Source of the DNA: a virus
Length of the DNA stretch: 64,000 bases
Strand: one strand, 5' to 3'
IMG/VR virus record: IMGVR_UViG_3300036820_000003
Location: 65,941 to 129,940 of that record
Both the position numbers and the translations under genes were made by a program. Position 1 is the first letter of the stretch. The number at the start of each line of letters is the position of its first letter. A model generated the notes under the pieces. The model made no database searches. It was not told the origin of the DNA and worked only from the letters and a program-made list of their open reading frames with translations. This document shows, piece after piece, positions 3,847 to 23,852 of the stretch.

Positions 3847-3856
3847 GTTTCCTTCC

Positions 3857-5478: not shown

Positions 5479-5836
5479 CTGAATCTGACTCCTTGTCGGG
5501 GACGTTCCTCGAACCCTGGAAACGGGGCGCGTAAACAGCAGGCTGGAAGAAGAGGGACGGAGCGTCGAAAACAGTTTCGAAGTGGGGCGGGGCGAGGGTG
5601 AGCGTGAGACCGGTGATGCAGCCGAAGCGCAGGATGTCGGCGATGTTCGGATTCTGATTCGGAATTCCGAGCCAGGTGACGGCCTCGACGCGACGACCTC
5701 GGAATAGGGCTCCGGGACGGGGGACTGGACGAGGGATGTAGTTGAGAGTGAGCTGCATCAGCGAGTCGGACCCCCTAGGACGATTAGCGCGACTGTGATG
5801 AGCAGCTCCGTCAGCAAGAATCCGAGCATCAGCCAC
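5471..5836 (-). CDS. Hypothetical protein
   Basis: Open frame in operon; true start may be the internal MQLTLNYIP. Confidence 0.5.
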   Translation of the reverse strand: MADARILADGAAHHSRANRPRGSDSLMQLTLNYIPRPVPRPGALFRGRRVEAVTWLGIPNQNPNIADILRFGCITGLTLTLAPPHFETVFDAPSLFFQPAVYAPRFQGSRNVPDKESDSDA

Positions 5837-6016
5837 ATGAGCGCCCAGGCCAGGACGTTGACAACGCGCAGGATTCGCATCACACGCATCCGGTCACCGC
5901 CAGCGCCCCGAGGGCCAGAATCAGGAACCACACCGCGAGAGTCACCGAGGCCCAGCGAACCTGTGAGGAGTGACGCAGGGCGCGCGGGTAGCAGCGCAGC
6001 CAGTTGAGAGCGAAGA

Positions 6017-6265
6017 TCACCCGGAAGCGGAAGTGAAGAACATGTGAACGGGTGAGGGAGCGCGGGAGGGGGGTTTTCGAACTAGTGTTCGGCATAATTC
6101 CGGCCTCCTCAAACGTCGACGCGGGACGTCCTTGTAGCCGAAAATCCGAGCGCGATCTTCCGAAGTCAGAGGGGCGGCCACTGTCTTGCGATAACGTCGC
6201 GCCGCGCGACGTTCGCTGATGCGAGTCGGGGTGATTCGCCACCAGACTTCACGCAGTACTGACAT
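6017..6265 (-). CDS. Basic hypothetical protein
   Basis: Overlaps upstream ORF end. Confidence 0.5.
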   Translation of the reverse strand: MSVLREVWWRITPTRISERRAARRYRKTVAAPLTSEDRARIFGYKDVPRRRLRRPELCRTLVRKPPSRAPSPVHMFFTSASG

Positions 6266-6464
6266 GCGCGGCTCCGGGAAGGATGACGGTCCAGCCGTCG
6301 CGCGAGGTGTGCCGGACGCTGACCTCGCCGCCCGCAGGGGAGCAAGTGACGACGGGGACGTCGATTCCCGGTCGCATGGCGGTGTTCACCATGTCGATGG
6401 CGGTGTCCTCGGGGATGTAAACTGCCATCGCCGTGACGGCCTGATCCGCGGTCATTTCATTCAT
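6249..6464 (-). CDS. Hypothetical protein
   Basis: Strong GGAAGGAAGGAAGGA SD run upstream of ATG. Confidence 0.7.
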   Translation of the reverse strand: MNEMTADQAVTAMAVYIPEDTAIDMVNTAMRPGIDVPVVTCSPAGGEVSVRHTSRDGWTVILPGAAHVSTA

Positions 6465-6559
6465 TCCTTCCTTCCTTCCTTCCTTTTCCTCCGGGTTCGA
6501 TTCCTCAAAGCCCCGCTGGGCGGACGACGGGCGGTCGAGTTCCCAGCGGGACGTTCAGG

Positions 6560-6587
6560 GTCCGACCGGGACCCGCCCCGGTCGGAC
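6560..6587 (-). terminator. GC-rich hairpin after the secreted-protein gene
   Basis: 11-bp stem GTCCGACCGGG/CCCGGTCGGAC directly downstream of the stop at 6596; no U-tract. Confidence 0.5.
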
Positions 6588-6595
6588 GTTGGGGG

Positions 6596-7570
6596 TTAGG
6601 AGGAGGCGCTGCCCTCGTTGATGCTGAAGGAGTTGCCGGTGATGGCGCTGGGCTCCATCGTGATCTGGCTCGCTCCGTTGATGGTGTTCGCCTGGACGAG
6701 CAGCTCGCCGCCGATCAGCCGATTACGGATGCTGCCGTTGTAGTTGTCAAAGGTCGCGTTGCTGAACGTGACCAGGGGGAGGTCTGCGGGTGCGGTCAGA
6801 TTGGGCGCGTTGGTGTTGTCCGCCCCGATGGCCGCCTCGAAGAAGTTCTCGGCGTTGACCCGCTCGGTGTACTGCAACTCCTTGACGAAAGTGCCCGAGG
6901 TGTTGTAGATGTCCACCGTGTACTGGATGAAGTGACGCTTCCCGGCGGGGGAGTAGTACGCGTCGAGAGTTACGGTGTCCCCCACGACGAGCGAGGTCTC
7001 GTCGACCGACGGCTGGACCTGATTGCCGGTGAACACGTAAGTGTCCGGGTCGCTGCCGGTGGCGATGCTGTTGACCCCCGTGGCGGAAGCGCCCAGTTCA
7101 GCGCCCGCCAGCTGAACGGCGGAGCCGGAGCGCAGGTTCGTCGAGCCCGGGTCGGTGACGATGACGCCATCCTGACTGCAAGGGTCGCTGCCGGTGGCGT
7201 TCTCAGTCAGATCGCCGTATGCGCCCAGCACCTCGAACTGACCGCCCAGGAACGTGACGCCGAGCTGCGCGGCCACGTTGTCGTCGTCGTCGCACAGCTC
7301 GACGCCGGTCGCGCCGGGATAGCTGCTGTCCAGGGCGTTGTTCAGATGCATCATCGCGGCAGTGATCTTGAATGTGGCGTGTGCGTCCCTGAGGTGCCAG
7401 TTGTCCCAGTGCTCCACGTACAGGCCGGCCTCACCGGTGACGTTGCTGCTAGGACCGACGACGGGAGCCGCGCTGGCCGCCGGAGCGAGGAAAGCCGAAC
7501 CGCCGAGAGCCGCGACTGCGACGCCGGAGGCGATCAGCCTTGAGCGCCTGTTGTTGTACTTGCTGGACAC
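6596..7570 (-). CDS. Secreted protein, possible glutamic peptidase G1 (peptidase A4)-like fold
   Basis: Signal peptide (basic N-region, ASA-A cleavage); AAQLG, VGDTVT, LVTFSNAT and GNSFSI resemble G1 segments; SD GGAAGGA. Confidence 0.55.
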   Translation of the reverse strand: MSSKYNNRRSRLIASGVAVAALGGSAFLAPAASAAPVVGPSSNVTGEAGLYVEHWDNWHLRDAHATFKITAAMMHLNNALDSSYPGATGVELCDDDDNVAAQLGVTFLGGQFEVLGAYGDLTENATGSDPCSQDGVIVTDPGSTNLRSGSAVQLAGAELGASATGVNSIATGSDPDTYVFTGNQVQPSVDETSLVVGDTVTLDAYYSPAGKRHFIQYTVDIYNTSGTFVKELQYTERVNAENFFEAAIGADNTNAPNLTAPADLPLVTFSNATFDNYNGSIRNRLIGGELLVQANTINGASQITMEPSAITGNSFSINEGSASS

Positions 7571-7634
7571 GGATGTCCTTCCTACGTTGGAAGGGCTTGC
7601 GGCCGCAAGCCCATGCGTAAAACCTACAGCATAC

Positions 7635-7671
7635 GACCGCGCGCCGCAACCTTTTGATGCGGTGCGCGGTC
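7635..7671 (-). terminator. 14-bp hairpin after the vWA gene
   Basis: GACCGCGCGCCGCA/TGCGGTGCGCGGTC immediately downstream of the stop at 7678. Confidence 0.5.
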
Positions 7672-7677
7672 AGTCGG

Positions 7678-8457
7678 CTATGCCTGAGTGGGAACCACCG
7701 CGAGCGCCATGTCCTCGGCTACCTCACGGTAGTTGGACACCCGGTCGAAGTAGTAGGCGTGAATCCAGGAGTGAGTCTTGGCGATTTCGACGTACTGGCT
7801 GTACGCCTCCTTGCCGGTGCCGTCGCCCAGGATGCCGACGGCCCACACCTCATCCCACTCGCCGTGGGAGCCGAGACCGTTCTTGAGCGTCGCCTGGGCG
7901 AGATACGCCTGGAATGCCTGCGCGTCGGCTAGCGCGCCGTCGGACAGGAGGATCCGAGCGCGAACCGGACGCTCGGCACGATGGGTGCTCCCGAACTCCG
8001 ACATGTAGTGCGCGTCGCCGGCGCGGATAGCCGCCATGATCTCGGTTCCGCCCTGCGGCTTGCCGTCCTTGAAGTACTTAGCGACGAACGCCTGCATCTT
8101 CTCGTCGAAGTTGGAGGAGTTCAGATCGCCGTCGTCGTCCCCCTCCCCGATAGGGCAGAAGATGTTGCTGAACGGGTAGGTGTAGACTCCGCCCTTGTCG
8201 TCGTCGCCGTCGGACTGCTCGGCGGCAGCCTGGCTGTCCAGCTGCTCGAAGGGAATGATGATCTCTCGCAGCGCCGCCACCTGCACATCGTAGGTGTTGA
8301 CCGAGGAGTCGCTGGCCCAGGGCCAGCCTTCGGACTCCGACACGTCGAAGTAGATCTCCGGCTCTACCTCCCGAGGTCCGGTGAGCAGCGGTACGATGCG
8401 CTCGCGCGGAGTGCGATCCGGCCCGCCGGTCGGTGTTTCCGTTCTGGTGATTAGCAC
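7678..8457 (-). CDS. von Willebrand factor A (vWA) domain protein
   Basis: MIDAS DVSES (DxSxS), GGT, LLSDG; SD GGAAGGAAG. Confidence 0.75.
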   Translation of the reverse strand: MLITRTETPTGGPDRTPRERIVPLLTGPREVEPEIYFDVSESEGWPWASDSSVNTYDVQVAALREIIIPFEQLDSQAAAEQSDGDDDKGGVYTYPFSNIFCPIGEGDDDGDLNSSNFDEKMQAFVAKYFKDGKPQGGTEIMAAIRAGDAHYMSEFGSTHRAERPVRARILLSDGALADAQAFQAYLAQATLKNGLGSHGEWDEVWAVGILGDGTGKEAYSQYVEIAKTHSWIHAYYFDRVSNYREVAEDMALAVVPTQA

Positions 8458-8539
8458 GCTCTTCCTTCCGTAAACCCTCTGTGTGGGGGCGTGTGCGTAA
8501 ACAGCCTACAGCCGCCGACTTCGCGATGCAAGGGGCAGG

Positions 8540-9763
8540 CTAAGGGAGCGACGGCAGCGTGACGCCCGCCTCCTGCAGACGGGTTTTGATGTGATTGATC
8601 AGATGATACAGATCCCTGCAGTAAACGGACGGATTGTCGAATGATCCGACTCCGTTCTCGGTCGTCATGTAGCGATTCGGATAGTAGCCTCCTCCGCACA
8701 CGTCGAAGACGGGACAAGTCTGGCAGACGGCTGACGGAGCGGGAGGCGTGTACCCCGGATGGAGGGCTATCTGGTCAAGGGTGGAGGTTCGAACTGAGAG
8801 ACCTGTGGCGGAGCCTCCGTCCGCTGTGGAGCGGAGAGCGTCCAGCAACTCGGCGGAGCCGTCGGCGTTCACCGCGAGGGAACGAGATCGAGGCGGAGGG
8901 CCGATGAAGCCGGCGCGCACATCGCGTCCCAGCAGACGACTGATGATGATGCGGAAGAGGCGGATCTGAGGGGCTCCCGGATCCAGGTACCAGGCGTCGA
9001 AAATATTTTCGAGCCAATCAGACGTCCCTGCGGCAGGAGGGCGATCCCATGTCTTCAGGCGAGGCAGCAGATCCAGCATCGGCGGGGACTGCGAGCGCAG
9101 GAACCTGTACGTCTCCACGGGATCGGAGTCGAGATTGACCACCGCCAGCAGACCCCCGTAACTGGAAGTCCAGCGCGGGGAGCGCAGCAGGGCGAGGGCG
9201 TCCAGAACCTGAGACGTCGAGGAGGATCCGCTTTTGAAGGGACGATGCGAATTCTGGGCGTCGTTGCCGTCCAGGCTCACGCCGAAGCGAATCCCGGCTG
9301 GCGCGAGCGTCGTCAGCATGTCCTCGGTGAGGAGCGTCGCGTTGGTCTGCATGCTGAAGGTGAGAGTGGTTCCGGGGGGCGCCTCCGCTTTGAACGCGCT
9401 GACGATGTCGAGGATGCGAGCGGGACCCGCCAGCAGCGGCTCGCCTCCGTGCAGGATGACGCGGAAGCGAGGGACGCTGTGGGAGCGCAGGTAGGTGCCC
9501 AGACGCGCCGCGAGGGTCAGGTAGATCGAGGGGGATATGAATCTGGGCTGGACGAGCCAGCTAGTATCCGCGAGGGAGTACATGTAGCAGTAATCGCAGT
9601 CCAGATTGCAGCGCGACGCTATCTTGAGCACAAGCTCGCTAAATATCGGAGTTGAAGGGGGTGTCGGGACTGATCTTCGACTGGAAGAGGGAATCAGGGG
9701 CTGAGTCGTTTTCGTCTCTGATCGCGTTGTTGAAGGGGTAGATATCCGGGCTGTCGCTTCCAC
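8540..9763 (-). CDS. fxsB: FxsB-family cyclophane-forming radical SAM/SPASM peptide maturase
   Basis: LVLKIASRCNLDCDYCY (CxxxCxxC), ILHGGEPLL, QTNATLL, GVSLDG, C-terminal CQTCPVFDVCGGGYY...NPSVYCRDLY; GTG 9763 has GGAGGAG SD 7 nt upstream. Confidence 0.88.
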   Translation of the reverse strand: MEATARISTPSTTRSETKTTQPLIPSSSRRSVPTPPSTPIFSELVLKIASRCNLDCDYCYMYSLADTSWLVQPRFISPSIYLTLAARLGTYLRSHSVPRFRVILHGGEPLLAGPARILDIVSAFKAEAPPGTTLTFSMQTNATLLTEDMLTTLAPAGIRFGVSLDGNDAQNSHRPFKSGSSSTSQVLDALALLRSPRWTSSYGGLLAVVNLDSDPVETYRFLRSQSPPMLDLLPRLKTWDRPPAAGTSDWLENIFDAWYLDPGAPQIRLFRIIISRLLGRDVRAGFIGPPPRSRSLAVNADGSAELLDALRSTADGGSATGLSVRTSTLDQIALHPGYTPPAPSAVCQTCPVFDVCGGGYYPNRYMTTENGVGSFDNPSVYCRDLYHLINHIKTRLQEAGVTLPSLP

Positions 9764-9812
9764 AAGAGGTCTCCTCCAGGATGACGGCGAGGGGGGTGAT
9801 GGCGATGGGCAT
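9639..9812 (-). CDS. fxsA: FxSxx-COOH-type RiPP precursor peptide, 57 aa, three tandem cores
   Basis: Hand translation MPIAITPLAVILEETSCGSDSPDIYPFNNAIRDENDSAPDSLFQSKISPDTPFNSDI*; GAAAGG SD; ends FNSDI-COOH directly at the maturase; below ORF-track cutoff. Confidence 0.85.
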   Translation of the reverse strand: MPIAITPLAVILEETSCGSDSPDIYPFNNAIRDENDSAPDSLFQSKISPDTPFNSDI

Positions 9813-9836
9813 GAGACGGCTGCCTTTCGTTGCGGG

Positions 9837-10640
9837 CTATCTGAGGGTGCGGGTGTCGATGAGGCGGATGTTGGAGTCGTTGCCGTCGTAGTGCAGGCCG
9901 GTCACCAGGACGGGAGGGGCGTTGACCAGAGCGCGCTCGTGCAGCGTCTCGTGGAAGAGATGATAGTGCCCGTGGAACACCCGGGTGACTTTGGTTCTGA
10001 TGGCGATGTCCTGCAGGAGCCGGGAGTGCTGACGCGCGATGTGAATCATCGGCTTCCAGGACTCGTGCGGGCGCGGGAGCGACGGGACCCAGCAGTCCGG
10101 CACGTCATGCGAGAGCAGCACGTCGGCCGGTCCGTCGGCGATGATTGAGTCGGCCTGCTCGCGGGTGATCTGCTCGTCCGGCCACCAGTCCACCCCCTCG
10201 GTTCGAGAGTGACGATCGACGCTGACCGCGCCTCCGACCGCGAGCCAGGTCTTCGAATTCCAGTTCCAACGAGTGCCGCGAGGGAGATAGCTGATCGCTT
10301 GGAATCCGCGCAGTCGCAGCGGGTAGTCGTGAGGCTGCTCGTAAGCTGCGAGCAGCTCTTGGATTTCGGGCCACCACTCGTGATTCCCGTCGATCCACCA
10401 CAGCTCCATCCCGAGTTCGACCAGAGCGTTGTCGAGCTGCTGGATGGGCATGAGCCCGGCGGTCCAAGCGGCGGGCTCCATCAGCTTGAATCCGAAGTCG
10501 CCCAGCTGGATGACGATCTTCCGAGTCTCCCCGGCCTGGGCGAACTGGCCGTCGAGAGCCTCCAGGGCGTGCAGGGTCCACTTCAGATTCCCGTGCACGT
10601 CGCCGAGGAGTCCCACGAACTCGGGATCCTTGTCTTCCAT
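9837..10640 (-). CDS. Calcineurin-like metallophosphoesterase
   Basis: GDVHGN, QLGDFG, IDGNHE, LSHD, FHGHYH motifs; SD GAAGGACGA. Confidence 0.9.
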   Translation of the reverse strand: MEDKDPEFVGLLGDVHGNLKWTLHALEALDGQFAQAGETRKIVIQLGDFGFKLMEPAAWTAGLMPIQQLDNALVELGMELWWIDGNHEWWPEIQELLAAYEQPHDYPLRLRGFQAISYLPRGTRWNWNSKTWLAVGGAVSVDRHSRTEGVDWWPDEQITREQADSIIADGPADVLLSHDVPDCWVPSLPRPHESWKPMIHIARQHSRLLQDIAIRTKVTRVFHGHYHLFHETLHERALVNAPPVLVTGLHYDGNDSNIRLIDTRTLR

Positions 10641-10724
10641 TCGTCCTTCCGTCCTTCCGTGGGAGGGGGCGGGCTGCGCCCGCCCCCTCACTATATACCC
10701 GCGTGCGCGCGTGCGCGCGGGGGA

Positions 10725-11447
10725 TCAGGCGTCGGAGTCGGAGCCGGGAATCAGCCTCGAGCGCAGGGTGCGCGGGATGCTCGGGGTGACCTTGACGGAC
10801 GCGATGGTCGCGCCGTGCTCCAGACGCAGACGTGCGACGGCCGTGGCGACGGCCGCCGCAGCTCGCTCCTTGGCGACCTGCTCGCGCTGGGCTTGGCCGT
10901 AGTCGGACGGGAAGGCCGTCAGCGGCACGTCAAGCTCATGAGTCGTGATGACCCGGACGCGCATGACGGCGAGGGGAGCGGAGGGGGCTGACGAGGCGGA
11001 TTCAGGCTTCAGGATGCTGATCAGTTCCTTGCGCAGGTGAGCGGGAATCTCGTAATCGTCGATCCTCTCGCTGCTCAGATAGCCGATCATGCCGCTCCGC
11101 CAGGCCTCCCCCTGCGCGCGGAAGGCGCTGAGCCGGGTCTCCAGGACGGCGGACGTGTCATCCGCTCCGGCGGGGGGCAGGGGGACGTCGTAGACTGCCT
11201 GCTGACGGATGTGCTCCTCATCGAACTGGCTGTTGCGTCCCGGGATGCGCGGGACGCCGCGCGCTCGCAGCCAGTCGTTGGTGCCTTCGTGACACGGACC
11301 CGGGCCGCCGAAGTACACGCGCATCTTGTGCGCGTAGCGCGCCACCTCCACTCTCCAGGTGATCTGCCGGACGCGCTCCGCGTCGAGGGCGGACTGCAGC
11401 TCCTCCTGACGGGAAGGGCGGGGCGGGGATTCAATTGTCTCGGTCAT
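10725..11447 (-). CDS. Hypothetical protein, first gene of the leftward arm
   Basis: SD GGAAGGAAC before ATG 11447; downstream of a leftward promoter. Confidence 0.7.
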   Translation of the reverse strand: MTETIESPPRPSRQEELQSALDAERVRQITWRVEVARYAHKMRVYFGGPGPCHEGTNDWLRARGVPRIPGRNSQFDEEHIRQQAVYDVPLPPAGADDTSAVLETRLSAFRAQGEAWRSGMIGYLSSERIDDYEIPAHLRKELISILKPESASSAPSAPLAVMRVRVITTHELDVPLTAFPSDYGQAQREQVAKERAAAAVATAVARLRLEHGATIASVKVTPSIPRTLRSRLIPGSDSDA

Positions 11448-11484
11448 TGCGTTCCTTCCGGGTGCTTGCGTTTGCCGCACTTTT

Positions 11485-13480: not shown

Positions 13481-14034
13481 CTCAAGGAGCGGGGGACGGG
13501 GGGGCTTCAATTGCAACTGTTCCTCCGGAAGGGGTTCGGGAGGGCGACTTCCGGATTGTGCGAGTGAGGGGAATCGGCGGATGGGGGATATCCGTCGGTC
13601 AGATGCTGAACGGAGAGCGACTCTCGTGGCACGATCACGCTGAAGTGTTCCTGGGAGTTGTCGGGAACGCGAATGCGACGGCGAGCGCGTATCCGGATCG
13701 TCGAGGAATCCAGCTGTATGAGAGAGCTGAGCAGGAAGTCTGGTCGACGGGGGTTATCGAGCTTTCGGACGCTCAGCGGACGGGAATCGTCAACTGGTGC
13801 CTGGGGCATCCCTGCGTCCAGTACGGCTGGCTGGACTACGCGGCGCTGATCCTGCATCGACTGGGGATGAAGGATCCTGCTTTGCGACGCTATATCGCTG
13901 CATCGGGACACGATATCTGCTCGCAATATGCGTCGCTGGCGTATCTGCACGGGGGCGGAATGGATCTTTTTCCGGGGGAGTGGGAAGGGTACGTGACTCC
14001 GGAGATGCTGGCCGGGAGGGTGGGACAGGCGTGA
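13477..14034 (+). CDS. Permuted papain-like (NlpC/P60, YaeF/YiiX-type) amidase/peptidase
   Basis: His first (HDHAEV), YGWLDY, Cys late (ICSQYAS), YVTPEML; GTG start overlaps upstream stop. Confidence 0.7.
   Translation: MTQGAGDGGASIATVPPEGVREGDFRIVRVRGIGGWGISVGQMLNGERLSWHDHAEVFLGVVGNANATASAYPDRRGIQLYERAEQEVWSTGVIELSDAQRTGIVNWCLGHPCVQYGWLDYAALILHRLGMKDPALRRYIAASGHDICSQYASLAYLHGGGMDLFPGEWEGYVTPEMLAGRVGQA
13495..13520 (+). repeat. 26-bp dispersed repeat, copy inside the peptidase gene
   Basis: GACGGGGGGGCTTCAATTGCAACTGT, identical at 21380-21405; 21 nt also at 3937-3957. Confidence 0.9.
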
Positions 14035-15934: not shown

Positions 15935-15973
15935 GCCCGTCTCATTTGGCATTTGACAAGTGAGGCGGGCTTT
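15935..15973 (+). terminator. Hairpin plus TTT closing the peptide operon, overlapping the next promoter
   Basis: GCCCGTCTCA/TGAGGCGGGC then TTT. Confidence 0.45.
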
Positions 15974-15981
15974 GGTATGCT
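15953..15981 (+). promoter_or_regulatory. SigA promoter TTGACA-17-TATGCT, leaderless start of the DNA-modification operon
   Basis: GTG at 15988 lies 6 nt after the -10; no SD. Confidence 0.8.
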
Positions 15982-15987: not shown

Positions 15988-16701
15988 GTGACGGATGACA
16001 AGATTGTCTCGGTTCCGGTCGGGGAACTCAAGTTCTGGCCGGGGAATCCTCGAGTGGGTGACCTGGACGCGATCCGGGAGTCGATTGAGGCGCACGGGGT
16101 GTACAAGCCTCTGCTGGTGCATCGAGGGACCGGACGAGTCATGGTCGGAAACAATACCCTGAAGGCCGCCGTGGAACTGGGGATGGAGCGAGTCCCGGTG
16201 GTGTACAAGGACGTCGACGATGATGTGGCGCGTCGCATCATGCTGGTCGACAATCGGACGTCGGATCGCTCGGACTACGACGAGGAACTGCTGCGAGCGG
16301 CGCTGCTGGCGGTGGCCGACGATTTCTCCGGGACGGGTTATCACGACGACGACGAGGACGTCGCGGCGCTGCTGGCCATTGTGATGGCGGCGGACGAGTA
16401 CAGCTTCGCGGGAGGGGCTGACGAGGAGGAAGTGCTGCTCCTCGACGAGGTGCGAACCGGAGCTGACTGGGCCGAGCTGCCCCAGCAGGAGGCCGCTCGG
16501 GCGGAACGGCAGGCTCAGCAGACTCCCTCGGCCGTCAAGGGGCTGCGCGAGATCATGCTGGTGTATCCGGTGGACGAGCATCGCGAGATGATTTCCGTGT
16601 TGGAAGGGCTCAAGCGGGTGTGGGGGGATCTGCGATATCCGCAGATTGTGGCGCGGGCTCTGCGGGAGGCGGCCGAGCGCGGCGGCGTGGTAGGCTTGTA
16701 A
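15988..16701 (+). CDS. ParB/Srx N-terminal-domain protein
   Basis: ELKFWPGNPR...SIEAHGVYKPLLV...VMVGNNTLKAA...IMLVDNRTSD. Confidence 0.85.
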   Translation: MTDDKIVSVPVGELKFWPGNPRVGDLDAIRESIEAHGVYKPLLVHRGTGRVMVGNNTLKAAVELGMERVPVVYKDVDDDVARRIMLVDNRTSDRSDYDEELLRAALLAVADDFSGTGYHDDDEDVAALLAIVMAADEYSFAGGADEEEVLLLDEVRTGADWAELPQQEAARAERQAQQTPSAVKGLREIMLVYPVDEHREMISVLEGLKRVWGDLRYPQIVARALREAAERGGVVGL

Positions 16702-16702
16702 G

Positions 16703-17626
16703 GTGCAAGCTACGGTGCCTGACGACAGGCTGATGGCGGATTATTTTTCGTTCCATCGGATTCAGATTGCGAATAGGGACGTCGATCCCGTTTACCCCGT
16801 CTTGAAGGCGGTGGGGGACAGGCTGTCGTTGAGCACCGAGGATCGCCTGCGTCTGGTATTCCTGCATGTGGCCTACTACGACATCGGGTCCGCGCTGACG
16901 GCGTTCGAGATAACGGGGGACGTGCACTACTGGTTCAAGTGCACCGAGACTAAACTGCCGTGCGGAACGGAACGTCGTAGGCATCGCATGGGCGACAACC
17001 TGCGCAATCACCTAGCATCTTTGCAGACTAGGGCGTTCGGCTGGCAAGGACTGGAACCGTGGCTCACGCACGGTCTGGACGATGACGCCCGAGGTAATTG
17101 GAAAACGGTGTCAGAGCGACTCATGCAGGTGGACGGAAACGGTCGCTGGGCGGCATTCAAGACCTGCGAGATGCTCAGGGAAGTGTGCGGGCTGCCGTTG
17201 GAGGCCCCGGACATGGGACACGCGAACAGTTCGGGTCCTCGCAAGGGACTGGGGTTGCTGTTTGCGGAGGCGCGAGTGGCGGGGAACTCGGCTGAGGTGA
17301 TAGCGGGATTGGATAGGCTGTCGGTTAGGCTGGTCGAGGAGCTGCGGGGGGCCGGGGCCGAGGCGTCGCTTGCGACCGCGGAGACGACGCTGTGCGACTT
17401 TCACAGTATGTGGAATGGCCGGTACTATCCGGGGCTTGATATCGATGTGATGCACGAGCAGATCGCGATGTCCCCGATGAGCCCGGAGATGCGACGTGAG
17501 GCCTATCTGGCGCGCGAGGCGGCGCTGCCCCTGGCTTACCTCGGTGAAGAGGGCGGCTGGCAGGGCGTCGACGTCAAGCGGAAGCGGATTTACCGGATGA
17601 CGGGGGAGATTGTCACTCGTGGCTGA
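16703..17626 (+). CDS. Amino acid:DNA transferase (aGPT-PPlase clade 2/ADDT-like)
   Basis: DVDPVYPVL, ERRRHR, GRWAAFKTCEML, AETTLCDFHS..NGRYYPGLDID; start may be ATG 16733. Confidence 0.75.
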   Translation: MQATVPDDRLMADYFSFHRIQIANRDVDPVYPVLKAVGDRLSLSTEDRLRLVFLHVAYYDIGSALTAFEITGDVHYWFKCTETKLPCGTERRRHRMGDNLRNHLASLQTRAFGWQGLEPWLTHGLDDDARGNWKTVSERLMQVDGNGRWAAFKTCEMLREVCGLPLEAPDMGHANSSGPRKGLGLLFAEARVAGNSAEVIAGLDRLSVRLVEELRGAGAEASLATAETTLCDFHSMWNGRYYPGLDIDVMHEQIAMSPMSPEMRREAYLAREAALPLAYLGEEGGWQGVDVKRKRIYRMTGEIVTRG

Positions 17627-18494
17627 TGTGGGGGGCTGGACGTTCGGGGCGGAGCTGGAATGGCCGGATGTGGACCGGCGGGCCGAGCTGGGGGGAGGCT
17701 GGGCGTGGTCGGTGACGGACTACACCGTCGTCAACTCGGACGGGACCGCCAACGATCCGCGCGGTGAGCTGAATCGCTGGGGCGGGGAGCTGAACACGCC
17801 GGTTTGCGGATCGGTCGAGGAGCTGGGCGAGCGCGCGGGAGAGATGCGGGCGCAGTTGAAGCCTGGTCACAACTACCGGTCGAATCTCCACATTCACGTG
17901 GCGGCTCCGGAATTTGCGGACGTCGAAAATCTGAAGAGAATCGCTGAATTCTCGCGTCGGGAGCTGCCAGGGGCGCTCAAGATGATGGACCCGCTGAACG
18001 GGCTTTTCTCGGGTCTGACGGACGAGGCGGAAGTGGCGGGGGCGCGGAAGCGAATGGCGCACTCGGAGCGGAGTCGTCACTATTTTGTGTCGGATGCTCG
18101 GCACGCTCGTCGGATGGAGGCTCGGGGGATTGAGGAGATGCTGCGAGCCGAGGTTCCGATGAGTCGCGAAGGGGCTCCGTGCTGGGCGCTGGCGTCGCGG
18201 GAAGCCGTCAATTTGCGTTCGATGCGGAAACACGGGACGATCGAGCTGCGCTGTTTCGCGGCGGACGGATCGGGCGAGAACGTGTGGGCGGCGGCGAGCT
18301 TCAGTCGGGACTGGCTGGCGACGGCGCTTGAGGGAGGCGAGGTGTTCGAGCTTCCCTACTTCTACTCGCTGCCGATTCAGCCTGCTTTCGAGCTGAAGCT
18401 CGAAAGAGGCTGGGAGTGGACGAACCTCAAGCACAATCGTCGGAACGTGGTGCGCGGACGGCTGGCTGAGATGAGGGGCCTGTGCGAATCGTAG
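17610..18494 (+). CDS. Putative amidoligase (COOH-NH2 ligase type 2)
   Basis: TFGAELE, GELNTP, NLHIHV, VNL.....GTIELR motifs. Confidence 0.75.
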   Translation: MSLVADVGGWTFGAELEWPDVDRRAELGGGWAWSVTDYTVVNSDGTANDPRGELNRWGGELNTPVCGSVEELGERAGEMRAQLKPGHNYRSNLHIHVAAPEFADVENLKRIAEFSRRELPGALKMMDPLNGLFSGLTDEAEVAGARKRMAHSERSRHYFVSDARHARRMEARGIEEMLRAEVPMSREGAPCWALASREAVNLRSMRKHGTIELRCFAADGSGENVWAAASFSRDWLATALEGGEVFELPYFYSLPIQPAFELKLERGWEWTNLKHNRRNVVRGRLAEMRGLCES

Positions 18495-18922
18495 CCGTCT
18501 GCACGGGGAACGTCGCCCGGAGCCCCGCCCTGGAGTGCCTGCTGCAGGAAGGGCTGGCGGGGGTGGAAGTGCGCTCGGCGGGGGTGGGCGACAAGGCCGT
18601 CGCCGGGCTGCGGATGAAGCCCTACATGCGGATGATCCTGGGGAGAGAGGGTTTCGGCGACTTCGCGGAATCCCATCGCTCGTTCGTGCTGCGAGGCGAG
18701 GAAGCGATCGCACCGGATCTTTTCGTCGCGGTGAGCCGAGTGCACGTGCGGAAGCTTGGCGGGATGTTTCCCGAGGTGCCGGTTCTCTTGTGCGATCCGA
18801 TTATCCCGGATCCGGCTTTCGGCGGGCTGGATGCCTACGAGGAAGCGTGGAACTTGATTCAGACGGCCTCGGATGATATGATTCGCAGAATCGAATCCGA
18901 GGACTGGGGGAGCTGCGAGTGA
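18482..18922 (+). CDS. Low-molecular-weight protein-tyrosine-phosphatase/ArsC-fold phosphatase
   Basis: VCTGNVARS (Cx5R) P-loop and IPDP general-acid motif. Confidence 0.85.
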   Translation: MRIVAVCTGNVARSPALECLLQEGLAGVEVRSAGVGDKAVAGLRMKPYMRMILGREGFGDFAESHRSFVLRGEEAIAPDLFVAVSRVHVRKLGGMFPEVPVLLCDPIIPDPAFGGLDAYEEAWNLIQTASDDMIRRIESEDWGSCE

Positions 18923-19761
18923 AGATTCTGGTGGTGGGGGCGGGAATCGCCGGGTCGTGCGTGGCTCGACTGGGGTCCGAGCGCGGTCACGAGATGAGGG
19001 TGATCGCGCGAGGCGATGAGCCGGATTCGCTCGCGGCGACGGCGGTGCTGCGTCGAGGTTATCACTCAGGGGGGTCGCTTGAGTCCTGGGACTACGCGAT
19101 CCAGTGCTATGAGCGCTGGGGCGTTCGAATGGCGAGAGGCGGGGCGGTTTCCAGCTATCGGAGACTGCTGGCGGAACCTCGTGCTGATGCGGACTGGACC
19201 CTGATTGATCCGGCTGCCCCCCTGGTGCAGGCCGATGTGAAAAGGGAAGTGGTGTCGGCGCATGGCGGCCGGGTGTGGTTCGGACCGGGGGCGGGGGAGG
19301 CGGGGGACGCCGTTGTGGTGGCCTGTGGCGCTCGCGGCGGGCTGTTGCGGCCGGCGGGCGCTGTTGGCGGCGCGATCGTTACCTATGGCGTTACGTGGGT
19401 CCACGCGCCGGAGGCTTTGAAGGAGCCCGAGGTTATGAGGGTGTATCAGTACGCCCCTTATCGAACTCTGCTGGCGGGTGTGGCCGGAGGAAAGGCGCGC
19501 GTCGGTAGTTCCTCGGCTGCGGGAGAGGAAAAGGCGGTGGAGCAGGGGCGGAAGATGCTCCAGACCGCGTGGGATCTGGGCTGGCTGACGACTCTTGACG
19601 AGTGGGAAATGCGAGTGGGGGCGCGTCTGAAGAGTCAGGAAGTCTGGTGGCGCGAAGGCGACGGTCACTGGGAAATCGGCGGATTTCATCGAACGGGGTA
19701 CGCTTTGGCTCCCGGGGCCGCTCGCGATGTGCTGGACGACATCGAGAAGTCAGCTCTGTGA
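18919..19761 (+). CDS. FAD-dependent oxidoreductase (DAO/glycine-oxidase-like)
   Basis: ILVVGAGIAG dinucleotide-binding motif; C-terminal GGFHRTGYALAPG. Confidence 0.8.
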   Translation: MKILVVGAGIAGSCVARLGSERGHEMRVIARGDEPDSLAATAVLRRGYHSGGSLESWDYAIQCYERWGVRMARGGAVSSYRRLLAEPRADADWTLIDPAAPLVQADVKREVVSAHGGRVWFGPGAGEAGDAVVVACGARGGLLRPAGAVGGAIVTYGVTWVHAPEALKEPEVMRVYQYAPYRTLLAGVAGGKARVGSSSAAGEEKAVEQGRKMLQTAWDLGWLTTLDEWEMRVGARLKSQEVWWREGDGHWEIGGFHRTGYALAPGAARDVLDDIEKSAL

Positions 19762-19767
19762 TTTGAT

Positions 19768-19796
19768 TTGACAGGCTCTTTTTTTTACGCTAGATT
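19768..19796 (+). promoter_or_regulatory. SigA promoter TTGACA-17-TAGATT, leaderless start of the kinase gene
   Basis: ATG 19803 is 6 nt after the -10. Confidence 0.75.
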
Positions 19797-19802
19797 TTGC
19801 TT

Positions 19803-20375
19803 ATGGATCTCGTTTATCTGGCCGGGGCTCCCGCCGTCGGCAAGTCGACTCTGATGGCCAGGCTGACTGAGGGCGCTGAGCGGGTGGCTCGAGCTGACGT
19901 GAAGCTGGTGCCCTACGACGAGCTGAGGGTTGCGGGCGAGGTTGTCGGGGCGGAGATCGGGAAGCGTCGGGTGAACTTCCCGGGGACTGATTCGCTTGCG
20001 ATGAACGCTCTGCCGAACGTCGCTAAATGGCTCGACGCGAAGATGTTCGACGTGGTGTGCGCGGAGGGGGATCGTCTGACGCACGTGCGATTCTTTGGCT
20101 CGGCGGCGGACGCCGGGTACTCGGTGCACGTTTTCCTGCTGCGAGCGCCAATGTCGGTGCTGGATCGGCGATGCGAGGCGCGAGGGTCGAACCAGAGTCG
20201 GAGCTGGCGGCTCAGCCGGGTGACTCTGGGCGAGCGGGTGGCGGCCTGGGCCGAGGCCGAGGACAGGATCTCGATGCACTACCTCGATTCTCAGAGACCT
20301 GTCACGGAGCTGGCCGAGGAAGTGCGACGGGCTGTGCCCGCGATGGAGATTCTGCGTGAGCGGGTGGCTGGCTGA
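19803..20375 (+). CDS. P-loop 5-hydroxymethyluracil-DNA kinase (5-HMUDK)-like
   Basis: GAPAVGKST, PGTDSLAM, EGDRLT, RGSNQS motifs; context with AADT. Confidence 0.75.
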   Translation: MDLVYLAGAPAVGKSTLMARLTEGAERVARADVKLVPYDELRVAGEVVGAEIGKRRVNFPGTDSLAMNALPNVAKWLDAKMFDVVCAEGDRLTHVRFFGSAADAGYSVHVFLLRAPMSVLDRRCEARGSNQSRSWRLSRVTLGERVAAWAEAEDRISMHYLDSQRPVTELAEEVRRAVPAMEILRERVAG

Positions 20376-21634
20376 TGGCTGCCGCCGCTGTTGTGAGGAC
20401 CCCGGGAGTGCGACTGGGCTATCGAGTTGCGGACTCCATTATCGAGCGCGACATTGAAGGTCGGACCTTGGGGGAGGACGACTACGACTGGCTTCTCACG
20501 GGCGGACCGCTGATGGTCAGGAGTCCGGAGGGGGCTCCGGTGGCGTGCTATCTGCCAGGGGTTTTGAAGGGCGTCATGGCCGAGGTCGACGCTTACCGGC
20601 TGCTGCATCCCCTGCACACGATGATGACGAACAATCGAGGCAAGGCGTCGGGTACGCGACGGATCGCCCGGGGGGACGGGGACGGGACGAGGAGCGACTC
20701 CGTCTCGATGTCGAGTCCCACTATCGGGTCGGCGGATCCAGGGTCGGTGTACCGCTACTGTCGCATGACGGAGTGGACCGGGGCGCATCTGCCGGAGTGG
20801 GAGGCGCTGGCTCCCCTGTTCCGGGTGATTGCGAGTCATCTTGAAGAGCGAGTTCCGGAGCGATACAACGCCCAGATGGAGTACGTCCGGAAGACGAATG
20901 AAGCGTGGGTGGTGCCGGGAACGCCGTTCACGACGATCACGGTGAATAACAGTTACTCCACCGGGGTGCACAAGGATCAGGGCGATCTGGAGGCCGGGTT
21001 CTCGACGCTGGCGTGCGTGCGTCGCGGCGAGTACTCGGGCGGCGTGCTGGTCATGCCGCAGTATAGGTTCGGCGTGGACATGCAAGACGGTGATCTTTTG
21101 CTGATGGACGCGCACCAGTGGCACGGGAACACGCGAATGACGTGCGCCTGCGGCGAGCGGATTTTCAATCGATTCTGCGGGGTATGCGGCGCGGAGCGGA
21201 TTTCGCTGGTGTGCTACTATCGGACTCGGATGGCGGAATGCGGGAGCCCTGCGGACGAGCTGGAAAGAGCGCAGGTAAACACCGAGAAGCGATCCCAGCC
21301 GCGCGTCGGACAGGATATCATTGACGCTGCCGCGTCAGTGATGCCGATTCCGATTGCAAATCCTGACCCCGCCCCTGATGACGGGGGGGCTTCAATTGCA
21401 ACTGTGCCTGCGGCGCCGATTGTCGACGAACTTGAGGCTCCCGCCAAGAGGCGCGGTCGTCCCAAGAAGCAGGTCGGGGTGCTCGACGTTGAGGTTGAGG
21501 TTGAGGCCGCGAAGCCGGAACCTGTCGTCAAGCGTCGGGGTCGGCCGCGCAAGGTCGCTGAGCCTGATAAGATCGCAGTGGCCAAGGCCGATTTGATGAA
21601 GTTTGATCCCGTGACCGGTGAGCCTTTGGAGTGA
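20375..21634 (+). CDS. TET/JBP-like 2OG-Fe(II) dioxygenase with C-terminal AT-hooks
   Basis: PFTTITVN, HKD (HxD), WHGN, ERISLVCYYR; tail KRRGRPKK and KRRGRPRK. Confidence 0.8.
   Translation: MAAAAVVRTPGVRLGYRVADSIIERDIEGRTLGEDDYDWLLTGGPLMVRSPEGAPVACYLPGVLKGVMAEVDAYRLLHPLHTMMTNNRGKASGTRRIARGDGDGTRSDSVSMSSPTIGSADPGSVYRYCRMTEWTGAHLPEWEALAPLFRVIASHLEERVPERYNAQMEYVRKTNEAWVVPGTPFTTITVNNSYSTGVHKDQGDLEAGFSTLACVRRGEYSGGVLVMPQYRFGVDMQDGDLLLMDAHQWHGNTRMTCACGERIFNRFCGVCGAERISLVCYYRTRMAECGSPADELERAQVNTEKRSQPRVGQDIIDAAASVMPIPIANPDPAPDDGGASIATVPAAPIVDELEAPAKRRGRPKKQVGVLDVEVEVEAAKPEPVVKRRGRPRKVAEPDKIAVAKADLMKFDPVTGEPLE
21380..21405 (+). repeat. 26-bp dispersed repeat, copy inside the TET-like gene
   Basis: Identical to 13495-13520. 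Confidence 0.9.
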
Positions 21635-21646
21635 GGAGTGAGTGGA

Positions 21647-22180
21647 ATGGGTCGTCGAACCGAAACGATGGAACGCGACGCTAAGATGTACTTGCGTCAC
21701 ACCAACAACATCCCGCACGACGCGATCGCGGCTGAGTTCGGGGTGTCGCTTGCTACTGTCGCGACGGGGATTCGACGGGCCATCCAGGACACCTTCAGGC
21801 TGTCGGCTGAGGAAGAGCGCCAGGTCGTGGACGATAGACTTTTGTATTTGGAGCGTCGTCTGCGGGTGATGGCCTCCAATAAGCACTATCGCGTTTCGGT
21901 TTCAGGGAAGGTCGTCGTCGATCCGATGACCGGGGAGCCGTTGCTGGACGACGAGCCGGAGTATCGGGCTCTGATGGCCATCTCGAAGATCGAGGGGCAG
22001 CGCAGCAAGCTTCTCGGACTCGACATGCCGGTGCGTCATCGAGTCGAGATCACCGACAAGATGGACGAGGAGATCGAGAAGCTCGCGATGGAGCTTTCGA
22101 TCCACGGCGCTGGCGAGAAGGTAGAGCCGGAGCTGCCGGTGGGGACGGGAGTCGTTGATGGTGACGGTAGCGACTCCTGA
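21647..22180 (+). CDS. terS: Terminase small subunit (HTH)
   Basis: IAAEFGVSLATV HTH, RSKLLGLDMP; directly upstream of TerL. Confidence 0.75.
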   Translation: MGRRTETMERDAKMYLRHTNNIPHDAIAAEFGVSLATVATGIRRAIQDTFRLSAEEERQVVDDRLLYLERRLRVMASNKHYRVSVSGKVVVDPMTGEPLLDDEPEYRALMAISKIEGQRSKLLGLDMPVRHRVEITDKMDEEIEKLAMELSIHGAGEKVEPELPVGTGVVDGDGSDS

Positions 22181-23852
22181 TCCTGGGGGGGAAGAGCCGG
22201 AGAAAGGCGATCTGCCTCCGGATTGGCGGGATCTCAGTCCCGAGGCCAAGAAGGCCCTGCTGCATAAGCTCAAAGGGAAACACATCTCTTTGGGACTGGG
22301 CGGACCGCGCAAGTGGCGGGCTCTGGCGCGACCCAAGCAGCTGAGTCCAGATGATCCGGTGCATCATCTGCCGGACGGCAACGGGTTCGCCTGCGCGTGC
22401 GGGGCGCTGGATAGTAGCTTCAACATCTGGATGTTCATGGCCGGCCGAGGCTGCGGGAAGACCTGGGCCGGATCCAACTGGATCATCGAGCAGGCGCTGA
22501 AAAACCCGGGGACCATGTGGGCCGTCGTGGCTCCCACCTTCCGCGACGTCCGAGTGACTTGCTTCGAGGGACCGTCTGGGATACGCCGTCAGCTAGAACC
22601 AGGTGAGGAAGACCAATGGCGACGCAACGAGTTGCGACTCGACCTGGTGAACGGCTCGATTCTCTACGGGTACTCGGCTGACCAGCCTGAGCGACTTCGC
22701 GGGAGTAATCTTTCAGGTGCTTGGTGTGACGAGATGGGCTCGTGGCAATATGAGGAGACCTGGTACGAAGGGCTGGTTCCCGCTCTGCGTATTGGCGAGC
22801 ATCCCCGTGTGATGGTAACCACCACTCCTCGTCCCACCAAGCTGGTGCGCGATCTGTACGGACGTCGCGACGGGACGGTCCACATCACCACCGCCTCGAC
22901 CTGGGAGAACGCCGCAAACCTTTCCGCCGCAGCTCTTGACGAACTACGTCGTCGGTACGAGGGAACGCGCCTGGGTCGTCAGGAGCTTGAAGGCGAGCTG
23001 CTGGAGGACCTTGAGGGGGCTTTGTGGAAGCGATCCGACATCGACGCCGCGCGAGTGCGGCTGGGGGATGTGCCGGATCTGATCCGGGTGGTTGTCGGGA
23101 TTGACCCGGCTGTCACCTCGACCGAAGAGAGTGACGAGACCGGAATCATCGTCGCGGGGGATGACGGGCATGGTCACGGCTACGTGCTGGCGGACTACAG
23201 TATGAAAGGGTCGCCTGAGGCGTGCATGCGGGAGGCCGTCCGGGCATACAAGCGTCACGGGGCTGACTGCATTGTCGCGGAGGTGAACAACGGCGGTGAC
23301 TTCATCGGAGCGGTGGTTCGTGCAGTTGACCCGGATGTGCCATATCACACCGTGCGAGCTAGCAGGGGTAAAGCTCTCCGAGCTGAGCCTGTTTCTGCTC
23401 TTGCTGAGCAACGGAGACTTCACCACGTAGGCAACCTGCCCGAGCTGGAAGATCAATTGTGCGCCTACGTGCCCGGAATAGGCGACTCGCCTGACCGGAT
23501 GGACGCGCTGGTCTGGGCGGTCTTCGAGCTCAAGGGATTGAGTCAGGCCTCGTGGCTGTCGGCCTACGGAGCCTGTCGCTGCTCGGGATGCGACCACGTG
23601 TACACCTCGCATCTTAAGGAGTGCCCGCGCTGCCGGACGGCGAATCCGGCGGAGGCTGAGCGGATTGCGGCTCGGGAGCGAGATGAGCCGACGGAGGAGG
23701 AGCCTGTCGTGGGCGGCTGGGCGTCGGTTTATCACCTGCGTCGCTGCGAGCGAGGGCACGCCTACCCCGAGAAAATGGGGGCCGGGGGATGCCCGCGCTG
23801 CCGATCGGACGGACTGGGTTTTTTGAAGTCGGCCGGTCGCGCTGTGCGTTGA
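22155..23852 (+). CDS. terL: Terminase large subunit with C-terminal zinc-ribbon extension
   Basis: AGRGCGKT Walker A, LRGSNLSGAWCDE Walker B, GIDPA, DETGII, SPDRMDALVWA nuclease motifs. Confidence 0.95.
   Translation: MMVTVATPDPGGEEPEKGDLPPDWRDLSPEAKKALLHKLKGKHISLGLGGPRKWRALARPKQLSPDDPVHHLPDGNGFACACGALDSSFNIWMFMAGRGCGKTWAGSNWIIEQALKNPGTMWAVVAPTFRDVRVTCFEGPSGIRRQLEPGEEDQWRRNELRLDLVNGSILYGYSADQPERLRGSNLSGAWCDEMGSWQYEETWYEGLVPALRIGEHPRVMVTTTPRPTKLVRDLYGRRDGTVHITTASTWENAANLSAAALDELRRRYEGTRLGRQELEGELLEDLEGALWKRSDIDAARVRLGDVPDLIRVVVGIDPAVTSTEESDETGIIVAGDDGHGHGYVLADYSMKGSPEACMREAVRAYKRHGADCIVAEVNNGGDFIGAVVRAVDPDVPYHTVRASRGKALRAEPVSALAEQRRLHHVGNLPELEDQLCAYVPGIGDSPDRMDALVWAVFELKGLSQASWLSAYGACRCSGCDHVYTSHLKECPRCRTANPAEAERIAARERDEPTEEEPVVGGWASVYHLRRCERGHAYPEKMGAGGCPRCRSDGLGFLKSAGRAVR

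What the first reader, a model, noticed from the sequence alone, without database searches (positions are those of the whole stretch)
15988..21634. Complete post-replicative thymine hypermodification pathway starting from a TET/JBP-like oxygenase
Seen: ParB, AADT/aGPT-PPlase2-like, amidoligase, LMW phosphatase, FAD oxidoreductase, then a second promoter for a 5-HMUDK-like kinase and TET/JBP-like dioxygenase running into terS/terL. Established: in phages such as M6, ViI and PaMx11, 5-hmdU in DNA is phosphorylated by 5-HMUDK and substituted with Gly or Ser by AADT, and 5-hmdU comes from a dUMP hydroxymethylase. TET/JBP-kinase-aGPT neighbourhoods have been predicted computationally. Inference: here 5-hmU is made on DNA by oxidation of T (no dUMP hydroxymethylase in the window), giving partial, packaging-coupled anti-restriction modification.
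Basis: partly seen in the sequence, partly recalled or inferred. Interest (0 to 1): 0.85.

Follow-up and report, generated by a model that had tools for sequence, protein, structure and literature searches.

The report
Phage thymine hypermodification cluster with TET oxygenase
A soil phage carries a seven-gene cluster that most likely oxidises thymine already in its DNA and builds a larger chemical group on it; this kind of system is already described, but two of its tailoring enzymes (an amide ligase and a small phosphatase) have no known role and may make a new DNA base.

Summary
Window 15988-21634 holds seven co-oriented, overlapping or abutting genes: ParB-like, AADT, GS-like amidoligase, LMW phosphatase, FAD enzyme, 5-HMUDK-type kinase and TET/JBP dioxygenase, running into terS/terL. 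The complete 130-kb phage genome has no ThyA- or ThyX-family gene.

Across related viral contigs, TET and ThyA-like genes exclude each other (0/26 against 13/16). This supports TET as the source of 5-hmU on DNA.

The FAD enzyme is a full-length homologue of PaMx11 gp47, the N-alpha-glycinylthymidine oxidase. The AADT keeps the catalytic Cys and the glycine-binding Trp/Lys of PaMx11 gp46. That Trp/Lys signature occurs in 26/26 loci with the FAD gene and 3/45 without it.

Predicted route: T, 5-hmdU, 5-PmdU, N-alpha-GlyT, 5-NmdU, then an unknown step by the amidoligase and phosphatase. This pair is adjacent in 28 of 41 loci.

The kind is already known. ParB-dependent phage T-dioxygenases linked to kinases and AADTs were shown experimentally (O'Toole 2026). 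TET in place of dUMP hydroxymethylase was noted by Lee 2021. Cultured actinophages are annotated this way. Only the amidoligase-phosphatase module is uncharacterised. "Partial" and "packaging-coupled" modification remain untested. The scan had noted this same stretch before.

The parts
15953..15981 (+). Promoter-like site TTGACA-17-TATGCT, ending 6 nt before the ParB GTG (leaderless-type spacing)
   Evidence: consensus scan only
15988..16701 (+). ParB-like protein (237 aa): N-terminal ParB domain, acidic linker, short C-terminal domain, no HTH hit. Likely activator of the dioxygenase.
   Evidence: role by analogy with PMC13229309
16703..17626 (+). Amino acid:DNA transferase (AADT / aGPT-Pplase2), predicted glycine-specific: catalytic Cys231 and a W149...K153 signature
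17610..18494 (+). GS-like carboxylate-amine ligase (distant Amidoligase_2). The database form starts at 17619 (291 aa).
18482..18922 (+). LMW phosphatase (CX5RS P-loop, DP motif). Closest solved relative is the arginine phosphatase YwlE.
18919..19761 (+). FAD-dependent N-alpha-glycinylthymidine oxidase/lyase homologue (PaMx11 gp47/NGTO-like)
19768..19796 (+). Promoter-like site TTGACA-17-TAGATT in the 35-nt FAD/kinase gap
   Evidence: consensus only
19797..20375 (+). 5-hmdU DNA kinase family (Ploopntkinase3, Walker A GAPAVGKS). Probable true start is ATG 19803. Its stop overlaps the TET start (ATGA).
20375..21634 (+). TET/JBP-type Fe(II)/2OG dioxygenase (419 aa): H199-x-D201, H247/H250, R275, a CxC...CxxC insert, and a 139-aa C-terminal tail with two RGRP AT-hook-like motifs
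21638..23852 (+). terS-like and terL genes starting 3 nt downstream of TET (context, not part of the pathway)

Best explanation
This is a post-replicative thymine hypermodification gene cluster of a 130-kb soil phage. It belongs to the ParB-dependent TET/JBP (5mYOX) type.

Proposed route:
1. The TET/JBP dioxygenase, helped by the ParB-like protein, oxidises thymine in double-stranded phage DNA to 5-hydroxymethyl-dU. This is inferred from context, from the exclusivity with ThyA-like genes, and from published enzymology of the subclass.
2. The P-loop kinase phosphorylates it to 5-phosphomethyl-dU (by family homology).
3. The AADT replaces the phosphate with glycine, giving N-alpha-glycinylthymidine. 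This is inferred from the conserved Cys and Trp/Lys and from their strict link with the FAD gene.
4. The gp47/NGTO-like flavoenzyme oxidises the Gly N-C-alpha bond, leaving 5-aminomethyl-dU (by full-length sequence and fold homology).
5. The GS-like amidoligase then uses ATP to join a still unknown carboxylate to that DNA-borne amine. It would take the place of the PaMx11 acetyltransferase. The adjacent LMW phosphatase either removes a phosphate carried by the added group or clears stalled phosphorylated intermediates. This step is speculative.

The likely benefit is protection of virion DNA from host nucleases. Placement directly before terS/terL fits late expression.
For: Anatomy and motifs.

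Source of 5-hmU:
- The complete genome has no ThyA- or ThyX-family gene and one TET.
- 0 of 20 records with TET relatives have a ThyA-like gene.
- 0 of 5 amidoligase records with TET have one, against 13 of 16 amidoligase records without TET. Fisher p = 2e-8.
- C5-methyltransferase hits occur in only 4 of 20 TET records and never next to TET.

Synteny: of 68 TET-clade loci, 55 have ParB, 52 the kinase (38 directly upstream of TET) and 48 an AADT. The slot between ParB and the kinase holds alternative cassettes: AADT+FAD, AADT+PLP enzyme, or a TET-associated glycosyltransferase.

FAD enzyme: the family profile hits PaMx11 gp47 (8Z2O/8Z79) over its full length at E 1.5e-9, and gp47 Arg242 aligns with an invariant Arg. 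The AF2 model's best Foldseek hit is gp47, at E 3e-15 and TM 0.75.

AADT: the profile hits AADT structures 25qc and 8Z2M. The W...K signature is present in 26/26 FAD-bearing loci and 3/45 others.

Amidoligase: fold and family. The phosphatase lies within 2 kb in 28 of 41 loci. The full seven-gene set recurs in at least six further independent contigs, in different gene orders and down to 26% identity.

Literature: PMC13229309 (ParB-dependent T-dioxygenases shown in vivo and in vitro), PMC8989533, PMC11472151.
Against: - No enzyme of this cluster has been assayed and no DNA from this phage has been analysed.
- O'Toole 2026 reports that phage T-dioxygenases also oxidise 5mC in vitro, and this genome has a small C5-methyltransferase-like ORF.
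- The amidoligase's own Pfam score is below the cut-off.
- The amidoligase-phosphatase pair also occurs without the FAD gene, with a different AADT type. Its substrate therefore need not be 5-NmdU.
- The role of the phosphatase is a guess.
- The loci counted are not phylogenetically independent.
Confidence: 0.75

Rival explanations
1. The dioxygenase acts on 5-methylcytosine laid down by the phage's own small C5-methyltransferase-like protein. The cluster would then build a cytosine hypermodification, not a thymine one.
For: A 223-aa ORF at genome 8422-9093 matches PF00145 (25 bits) and has FxGxG, PC and ENV motifs. Phage TETs that act on 5mC exist (PMC8256090). Phage T-dioxygenases can also oxidise 5mC in vitro.
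Against: The methyltransferase-like ORF is about 52 kb away and lacks a target-recognition region. 16 of 20 records with TET relatives have no C5-MTase hit, including 5 of 9 complete ones. The kinase, AADT and gp47-like enzyme are known only on 5-hmdU derivatives. TET excludes ThyA-like genes, as expected if it supplies 5-hmU.
Confidence: 0.06
2. The chemistry up to N-alpha-GlyT is as proposed, but the amidoligase acts on the glycine carboxylate and joins an amine to it. The flavoenzyme would then have another role or act on a side fraction.
For: GS-like ligases activate carboxylates, and N-alpha-GlyT offers one on the DNA. The amidoligase-phosphatase pair also occurs in loci without the FAD gene.
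Against: In every untruncated locus where the amidoligase accompanies a Trp/Lys-type (glycine-type) AADT, the FAD gene is present too. That would be unnecessary if the ligase used N-alpha-GlyT directly. The Arg that binds the glycine carboxylate in gp47 is invariant in this family, so the flavoenzyme needs the free carboxylate.
Confidence: 0.15
3. The cluster places a sparse, sequence-specific mark used for regulation or for packaging recognition. It is not a bulk anti-restriction coat.
For: Published phage T-dioxygenases modify 1-35% of T with sequence preference, and their authors raise this idea. The TET tail has AT-hook-like motifs. The cluster abuts terS/terL here, in many relatives and in cultured actinophages.
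Against: Known relatives of the downstream enzymes (M6, ViI, PaMx11) protect DNA from restriction (PMC8989533, PMC6449724). Nothing here measures the extent or the sites of modification.
Confidence: 0.15
4. The amidoligase and the YwlE-like phosphatase are not DNA-modifying enzymes. They act on proteins or small molecules, for example phospho-arginine signalling of the host, and merely ride in the operon.
For: The closest solved relative of the phosphatase is the arginine phosphatase YwlE (E 6e-9). No tailoring role is known for either family.
Against: The pair sits between the AADT and the FAD gene, with overlapping reading frames, in at least ten divergent contigs. 29 of 41 amidoligase loci carry an AADT.
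Confidence: 0.08

Closest known systems
ParB-dependent phage thymine dioxygenases (5mYOX clade C1; O'Toole et al. PNAS 2026, PMC13229309)
   Same: A TET/JBP-fold enzyme with a C-terminal extension. A short ParB homologue lacking an HTH is encoded nearby. It is linked with a P-loop kinase and an AADT, has no adjacent C5-MTase, and is often next to the terminase.
   Different: The window's enzyme has a much longer tail (139 aa against about 30 in most relatives) with two AT-hook-like motifs. Activity and ParB dependence are untested. Clade placement could not be checked.
Pseudomonas phage PaMx11 5-AcNmdU pathway (gp46 AADT, gp47 flavin lyase/NGTO, gp48 acetyltransferase, gp49 kinase; PMC8989533, PMC11472151)
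   Same: Kinase, glycine-type AADT and gp47-like flavoenzyme, predicting 5-PmdU, then N-alpha-GlyT, then 5-NmdU.
   Different: In PaMx11 the 5-hmdU comes from a dUMP hydroxymethylase before replication; here it comes from TET+ParB on DNA. The GNAT acetyltransferase is replaced by a GS-like amidoligase plus an LMW phosphatase.
Thymidine hypermodification clusters of cultured actinophages (Gordonia phage Wooper gp1-5, Rhodococcus phage Tonitrus, Mycobacterium phage Phelemich gp1-5)
   Same: ParB-like, Tet-like, aGPT-Pplase2, DNA kinase (plus an oxidoreductase in Phelemich) directly before the terminase. AADT is 42-43% and FAD 39% identical to the window's proteins.
   Different: No amidoligase or phosphatase. 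Different gene order. These are 57-71 kb siphoviruses, whereas this is a 130-kb genome with no close cultured relative.
Trypanosomatid base J pathway (JBP1/2 plus glucosyltransferase)
   Same: Oxidation of T in DNA to 5-hmU as the first step of a hypermodification. Related loci such as L030 even pair ParB+TET with a TET-associated glycosyltransferase.
   Different: Here the 5-hmU is activated by phosphorylation and substituted with an amino acid, not glucosylated.

Membership tests
TET/JBP (PF12851) Fe(II)/2OG dioxygenase | Pfam score above the gathering cut-off, and an HxD...H iron triad plus a 2OG-binding Arg | tested here: met
   77.8 bits against 34.9. H199, D201, H247/H250 and R275 are at least 95% conserved in 63 relatives.
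ParB-dependent phage T-dioxygenase subclass (O'Toole 2026) | A co-located ParB homologue with an N-terminal nucleotide-binding domain and a C-terminal domain but no DNA-binding HTH | tested here: met
   The ParB_N-only protein of 237 aa lies 3.7 kb upstream in the same gene row. ParB is present in 55 of 68 TET-clade loci. The domain layout was read from the sequence and not modelled.
ParB-dependent phage T-dioxygenase subclass (O'Toole 2026) | A C-terminal extension beyond the conserved core, and no neighbouring C5-MTase | tested here: met
   130 to 139 aa lie beyond the core, counted from C289 or from position 280. The only PF00145 hit in the genome is about 52 kb away.
ParB-dependent phage T-dioxygenase subclass (O'Toole 2026) | Phylogenetic placement in clade C1, and T oxidation that needs ParB on dsDNA | not testable with these tools
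   No reference sequences of the characterised 5mYOX enzymes were held. Activity needs experiments.
5-HMUDK (Ploopntkinase3, PF18751) | Family score above the cut-off, and a Walker A P-loop | tested here: met
   104.5 bits against 27. GAPAVGKS motif.
Glycine-type AADT (aGPT-Pplase2 / PUGT, PaMx11 gp46) | ADDT domain, a catalytic Cys (gp46 C247), and the glycine-binding Trp146 and Lys150 | tested here: met
   62.3 bits against 26.2. The profile hits 25qc at E 8e-15 and 8Z2M at 1.4e-3. C231 is invariant. W149/K153 have the same +4 spacing and are strictly linked to the FAD gene. The residue equivalence comes from profile alignment, not from a structure.
N-alpha-GlyT oxidase / flavin-dependent lyase (PaMx11 gp47, NGTO) | Full-length homology, a GxGxxG FAD site, and the carboxylate-binding Arg242 | tested here: met
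   Profile E 1.5e-9 over residues 3-274. The Foldseek top hit is 8Z79, at E 2.8e-15 and TM 0.75. GAGIAGS is present. R236 is invariant and aligned to Arg242. The single sequence alone finds nothing in the PDB.
Amidoligase_2 (PF12224) / GS-like carboxylate-amine ligase | Pfam score above the gathering cut-off for the protein itself | tested here: not met
   15.9 bits against 22, E 0.012.
Amidoligase_2 (PF12224) / GS-like carboxylate-amine ligase | Family membership through homologues, and the GS/GCL catalytic fold | tested here: met
   19 of 29 homologues match PF12224 (best E 7e-9). In the VIA-wide search, ranks 1-19 are all GS/GCL/YbdK/PafA/Dop at Z 6.5-11.0, and the next hit is at 4.3.
LMW phosphatase (PF01451) | A CX5R(S/T) P-loop at the N-terminus and a DP general-acid motif | tested here: met
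   37 bits against 23.2. C7-TGNVA-R13-S14 and a later DP. The best solved relative is YwlE 4pic, E 5.6e-9. The substrate is unknown.

The most novel reading that the evidence does not exclude
The conserved amidoligase plus YwlE-like phosphatase pair is a new two-enzyme tailoring module that acts on DNA. It would acylate a DNA-borne primary amine: 5-aminomethyl-dU here, or another amine adduct in loci with a Phe-type AADT. The donor could be a phosphorylated or otherwise unusual carboxylate that is then dephosphorylated. The product would be a thymine hypermodification not yet described, and this would be the first GS-fold ligase and the first LMW phosphatase shown to work on nucleobases in DNA.
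Probability: 0.35. Interest if true: 0.7.

Novelty: new variant of a known kind. Interest (0 to 1): 0.45.

Why it matters
The general design is already established: a ParB-assisted TET makes 5-hmU on DNA, and a kinase and an AADT then build on it. This locus therefore does not open a new field.

Its value is that it gives a clean, complete example in which every step up to 5-aminomethyl-dU can be assigned by homology to solved and assayed enzymes. That isolates the two remaining genes as the unknown chemistry. The amidoligase-phosphatase pair recurs next to AADTs in dozens of phage contigs, fed either by TET or by ThyA-like enzymes. The latest reviews of tailoring enzymes do not list either family.

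Working out its product would add a new natural DNA base and two new enzyme activities on DNA. Both could be useful for enzymatic DNA labelling.

Tried and rejected
- Megablast of the cluster against cultured phages found nothing. The terL search gave only distant, taxonomically mixed hits, so no host could be assigned.
- A single-sequence PDB search found nothing for the FAD enzyme, for TET or for the amidoligase profile. Plain Foldseek on the amidoligase gave only weak E-values. VIA-wide was needed.
- The upstream minus-strand block (radical SAM 8540-9763, metallophosphoesterase, GT2) was considered as part of the pathway. It was rejected because it is generic by Pfam/PHROGs and is not conserved next to the cluster in relatives.
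- The 506-aa amidoligase fusion P0058 was checked for a kinase or phosphatase partner. None was detectable.
- The supplement of O'Toole 2026 is not held, so the characterised 5mYOX/ParB sequences could not be compared.
- Sequencing runs: two soil-metagenome DNA holders and no RNA holder are listed.
- ThyX and a second TET copy were sought in the genome and not found.
Full report
**What is there**

The window is the second half (65941-129940) of a 129,940-bp IMG/VR virus record with terminal repeats, rated 100% complete. The repeat is 127 bp. The source is a soil metagenome.

At 15988-21634 seven + strand genes follow each other with overlaps or gaps of 0-3 nt. The one exception is a 35-nt gap before the kinase. 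Pfam and PHROGs give these assignments:
- ParB_N, 15988-16701.
- ADDT, 16703-17626.
- An ORF with only a sub-threshold Amidoligase_2 hit, 17610-18494.
- LMWPc, 18482-18922.
- A DAO-type FAD Rossmann protein, 18919-19761.
- Ploopntkinase3, 19797-20375.
- Tet_JBP, 20375-21634.
- terS-like and terL genes follow directly.

Consensus promoters (TTGACA-17-TATGCT and TTGACA-17-TAGATT) lie just before ParB and before the kinase. The region has 5 such sites against 1.2 expected. Their spacing would give leaderless transcripts and places the kinase start at ATG 19803. These are pattern matches only.

**The individual enzymes**

*TET.* It keeps H199-x-D201, H247/H250 and R275, which are conserved in 63 relatives. 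It has a CxC...CxxC insert shared with many of them. Its 139-aa tail is found only in its three closest relatives, and the two RGRP motifs are unique to it.

*Kinase and phosphatase.* The kinase has a Walker A motif. The phosphatase has an intact CX5RS loop and a DP motif. Its closest solved relative is the arginine phosphatase YwlE.

*Amidoligase.* The unnamed ORF has 57 database homologues, and 19 of 29 sampled match Amidoligase_2. Its AF2 model (pLDDT 95) matches only glutamine synthetase, glutamate-cysteine ligase, YbdK and PafA/Dop structures at ranks 1-19 (Z 6.5-11). Scores then fall to 4.3. It is a GS-fold carboxylate-amine ligase.

*FAD enzyme.* A profile of the FAD protein family matches PaMx11 gp47 over its full length at E 1.5e-9. 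PaMx11 gp47 is the N-alpha-glycinylthymidine oxidase, PDB 8Z2O/8Z79 (PMC11472151). Its carboxylate-binding Arg242 aligns to an invariant Arg. The AF2 model (pLDDT 86.5) has gp47 as its best Foldseek hit, four orders of magnitude ahead of the next.

*AADT.* The AADT profile hits the AADT structures 25qc and 8Z2M. The catalytic Cys is invariant. The window's protein has Trp149 and Lys153 where gp46 has its glycine-binding Trp146 and Lys150.

**Where the 5-hmU comes from**

The whole genome has no ThyA-family and no ThyX gene, and a single TET.

I fetched 67 viral loci with TET relatives and 40 with amidoligase relatives, and scored them with HMMs built here.
- None of 20 larger records with TET relatives has a ThyA-like gene.
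- Among amidoligase records, 0 of 5 with TET have a ThyA-like gene, against 13 of 16 without TET. Fisher p = 2e-8, with the caveat that the loci are related to one another.
- C5-methyltransferase hits occur in only 4 of 20 TET records, and far from TET.

So TET and ThyA-like enzymes are alternative feeders of the same downstream chemistry. This is what Lee et al. 2021 suggested and what O'Toole et al. 2026 demonstrated for the oxidation step, including the need for the ParB partner on dsDNA.

One caveat is a 223-aa C5-MTase-like ORF at genome 8422-9093 with motifs I, IV and VI.

**Modular architecture**

In the TET-clade loci, ParB is present in 55 of 68 and the kinase in 52, of which 38 are directly upstream of TET. 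An AADT is present in 48. The slot between ParB and the kinase holds different cassettes:
- AADT plus the gp47-like flavoenzyme.
- A divergent AADT plus a PLP enzyme.
- A TET-associated glycosyltransferase with no kinase.

The AADT signature tracks the cassette. All 26 loci with the flavoenzyme have Trp...Lys, and only 3 of 45 without it do (two of those, L083 and L106, have the AADT at a contig end). PLP-linked AADTs have Leu at that position, and others have Tyr or Phe. This supports glycine as the amino acid here and 5-aminomethyl-dU as the flavoenzyme's product.

**The unknown part**

The phosphatase lies within 2 kb of the amidoligase in 28 of 41 loci. This includes low-GC contigs where tblastn missed it.

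The seven-gene set recurs in L002, L003, L004, L079, L088, L111 and L113, in different orders and down to 26% amidoligase identity.

Wherever the amidoligase accompanies a glycine-type AADT on an untruncated locus, the flavoenzyme is present too. Where the flavoenzyme is absent, the AADT is mostly of the Phe type (Tyr in L094). From this I infer that the ligase needs a DNA-borne amine and acylates 5-NmdU, taking the place of the PaMx11 acetyltransferase. The phosphatase's role is open.

Neither family is listed among known tailoring enzymes as late as August 2026. Lee 2021 mentions amidoligase co-occurrence with function unknown.

**Comparison and verdict**

Cultured actinophages already carry and are annotated with ParB, Tet-like, aGPT-Pplase2 and DNA kinase genes (with or without an oxidoreductase) directly before the terminase. 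Only the amidoligase-phosphatase tailoring module is new ground. 'Partial' and 'packaging-coupled' modification were not tested.

Noticed in passing
window 3938-3957, 13500-13519, 21385-21404 (+ strand): There are three exact copies of the 20-nt element GGGGGCTTCAATTGCAACTG in the 130-kb genome, all on one strand and all in this window. One lies in-frame inside the TET C-terminal tail, 250 nt before terS. The copies at 13495 and 21380 agree over 26 nt. The element holds overlapping CAATTG/TTGCAA palindromes in a 63% GC genome. Its function is unknown.
   Followed up: partly
genome G000:C1:8422-9093 (L075:8422-9093, outside the window): A 223-aa C5-cytosine methyltransferase-like ORF (PF00145, 25 bits). 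It has FCGGGG, PPCH and ENV motifs but no room for a target-recognition domain.
   Followed up: partly
window 2542-11480 (- strand): A divergently oriented block with a GT2 glycosyltransferase, a radical SAM protein (8540-9763), a metallophosphoesterase and several ORFs without family matches. It is not conserved next to the cluster in relatives.
   Followed up: partly
window 15988-16701 and ParB homologues in L002-L068: In the TET-associated ParBs the box 'GNPR/GNAR' is conserved. The canonical GERR arginine patch is instead GN(N/H)T or GNHR in the commonest motif variants among the 48 aligned sequences. This fits the published finding that NTP-binding residues are dispensable for activating the dioxygenase.
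   Followed up: partly
L030:7210-7992: In some TET-clade loci a TET-associated glycosyltransferase (PF20691) sits between ParB and TET, with no kinase or AADT. This suggests a base-J-like glycosylated 5-hmU in those phages.
   Followed up: no
L005, L010, L019, L025 (between ParB and kinase): An alternative cassette: a divergent AADT (Leu at the Trp position) followed by a PALP-family PLP enzyme. It probably makes a different thymine adduct from the same TET/kinase chassis.
   Followed up: partly
protein P0058 (506 aa): An amidoligase homologue fused to an extra C-terminal region of about 250 aa. That region has only a faint AAA_5 match and no detectable similarity to the window's kinase or phosphatase.
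   Followed up: partly
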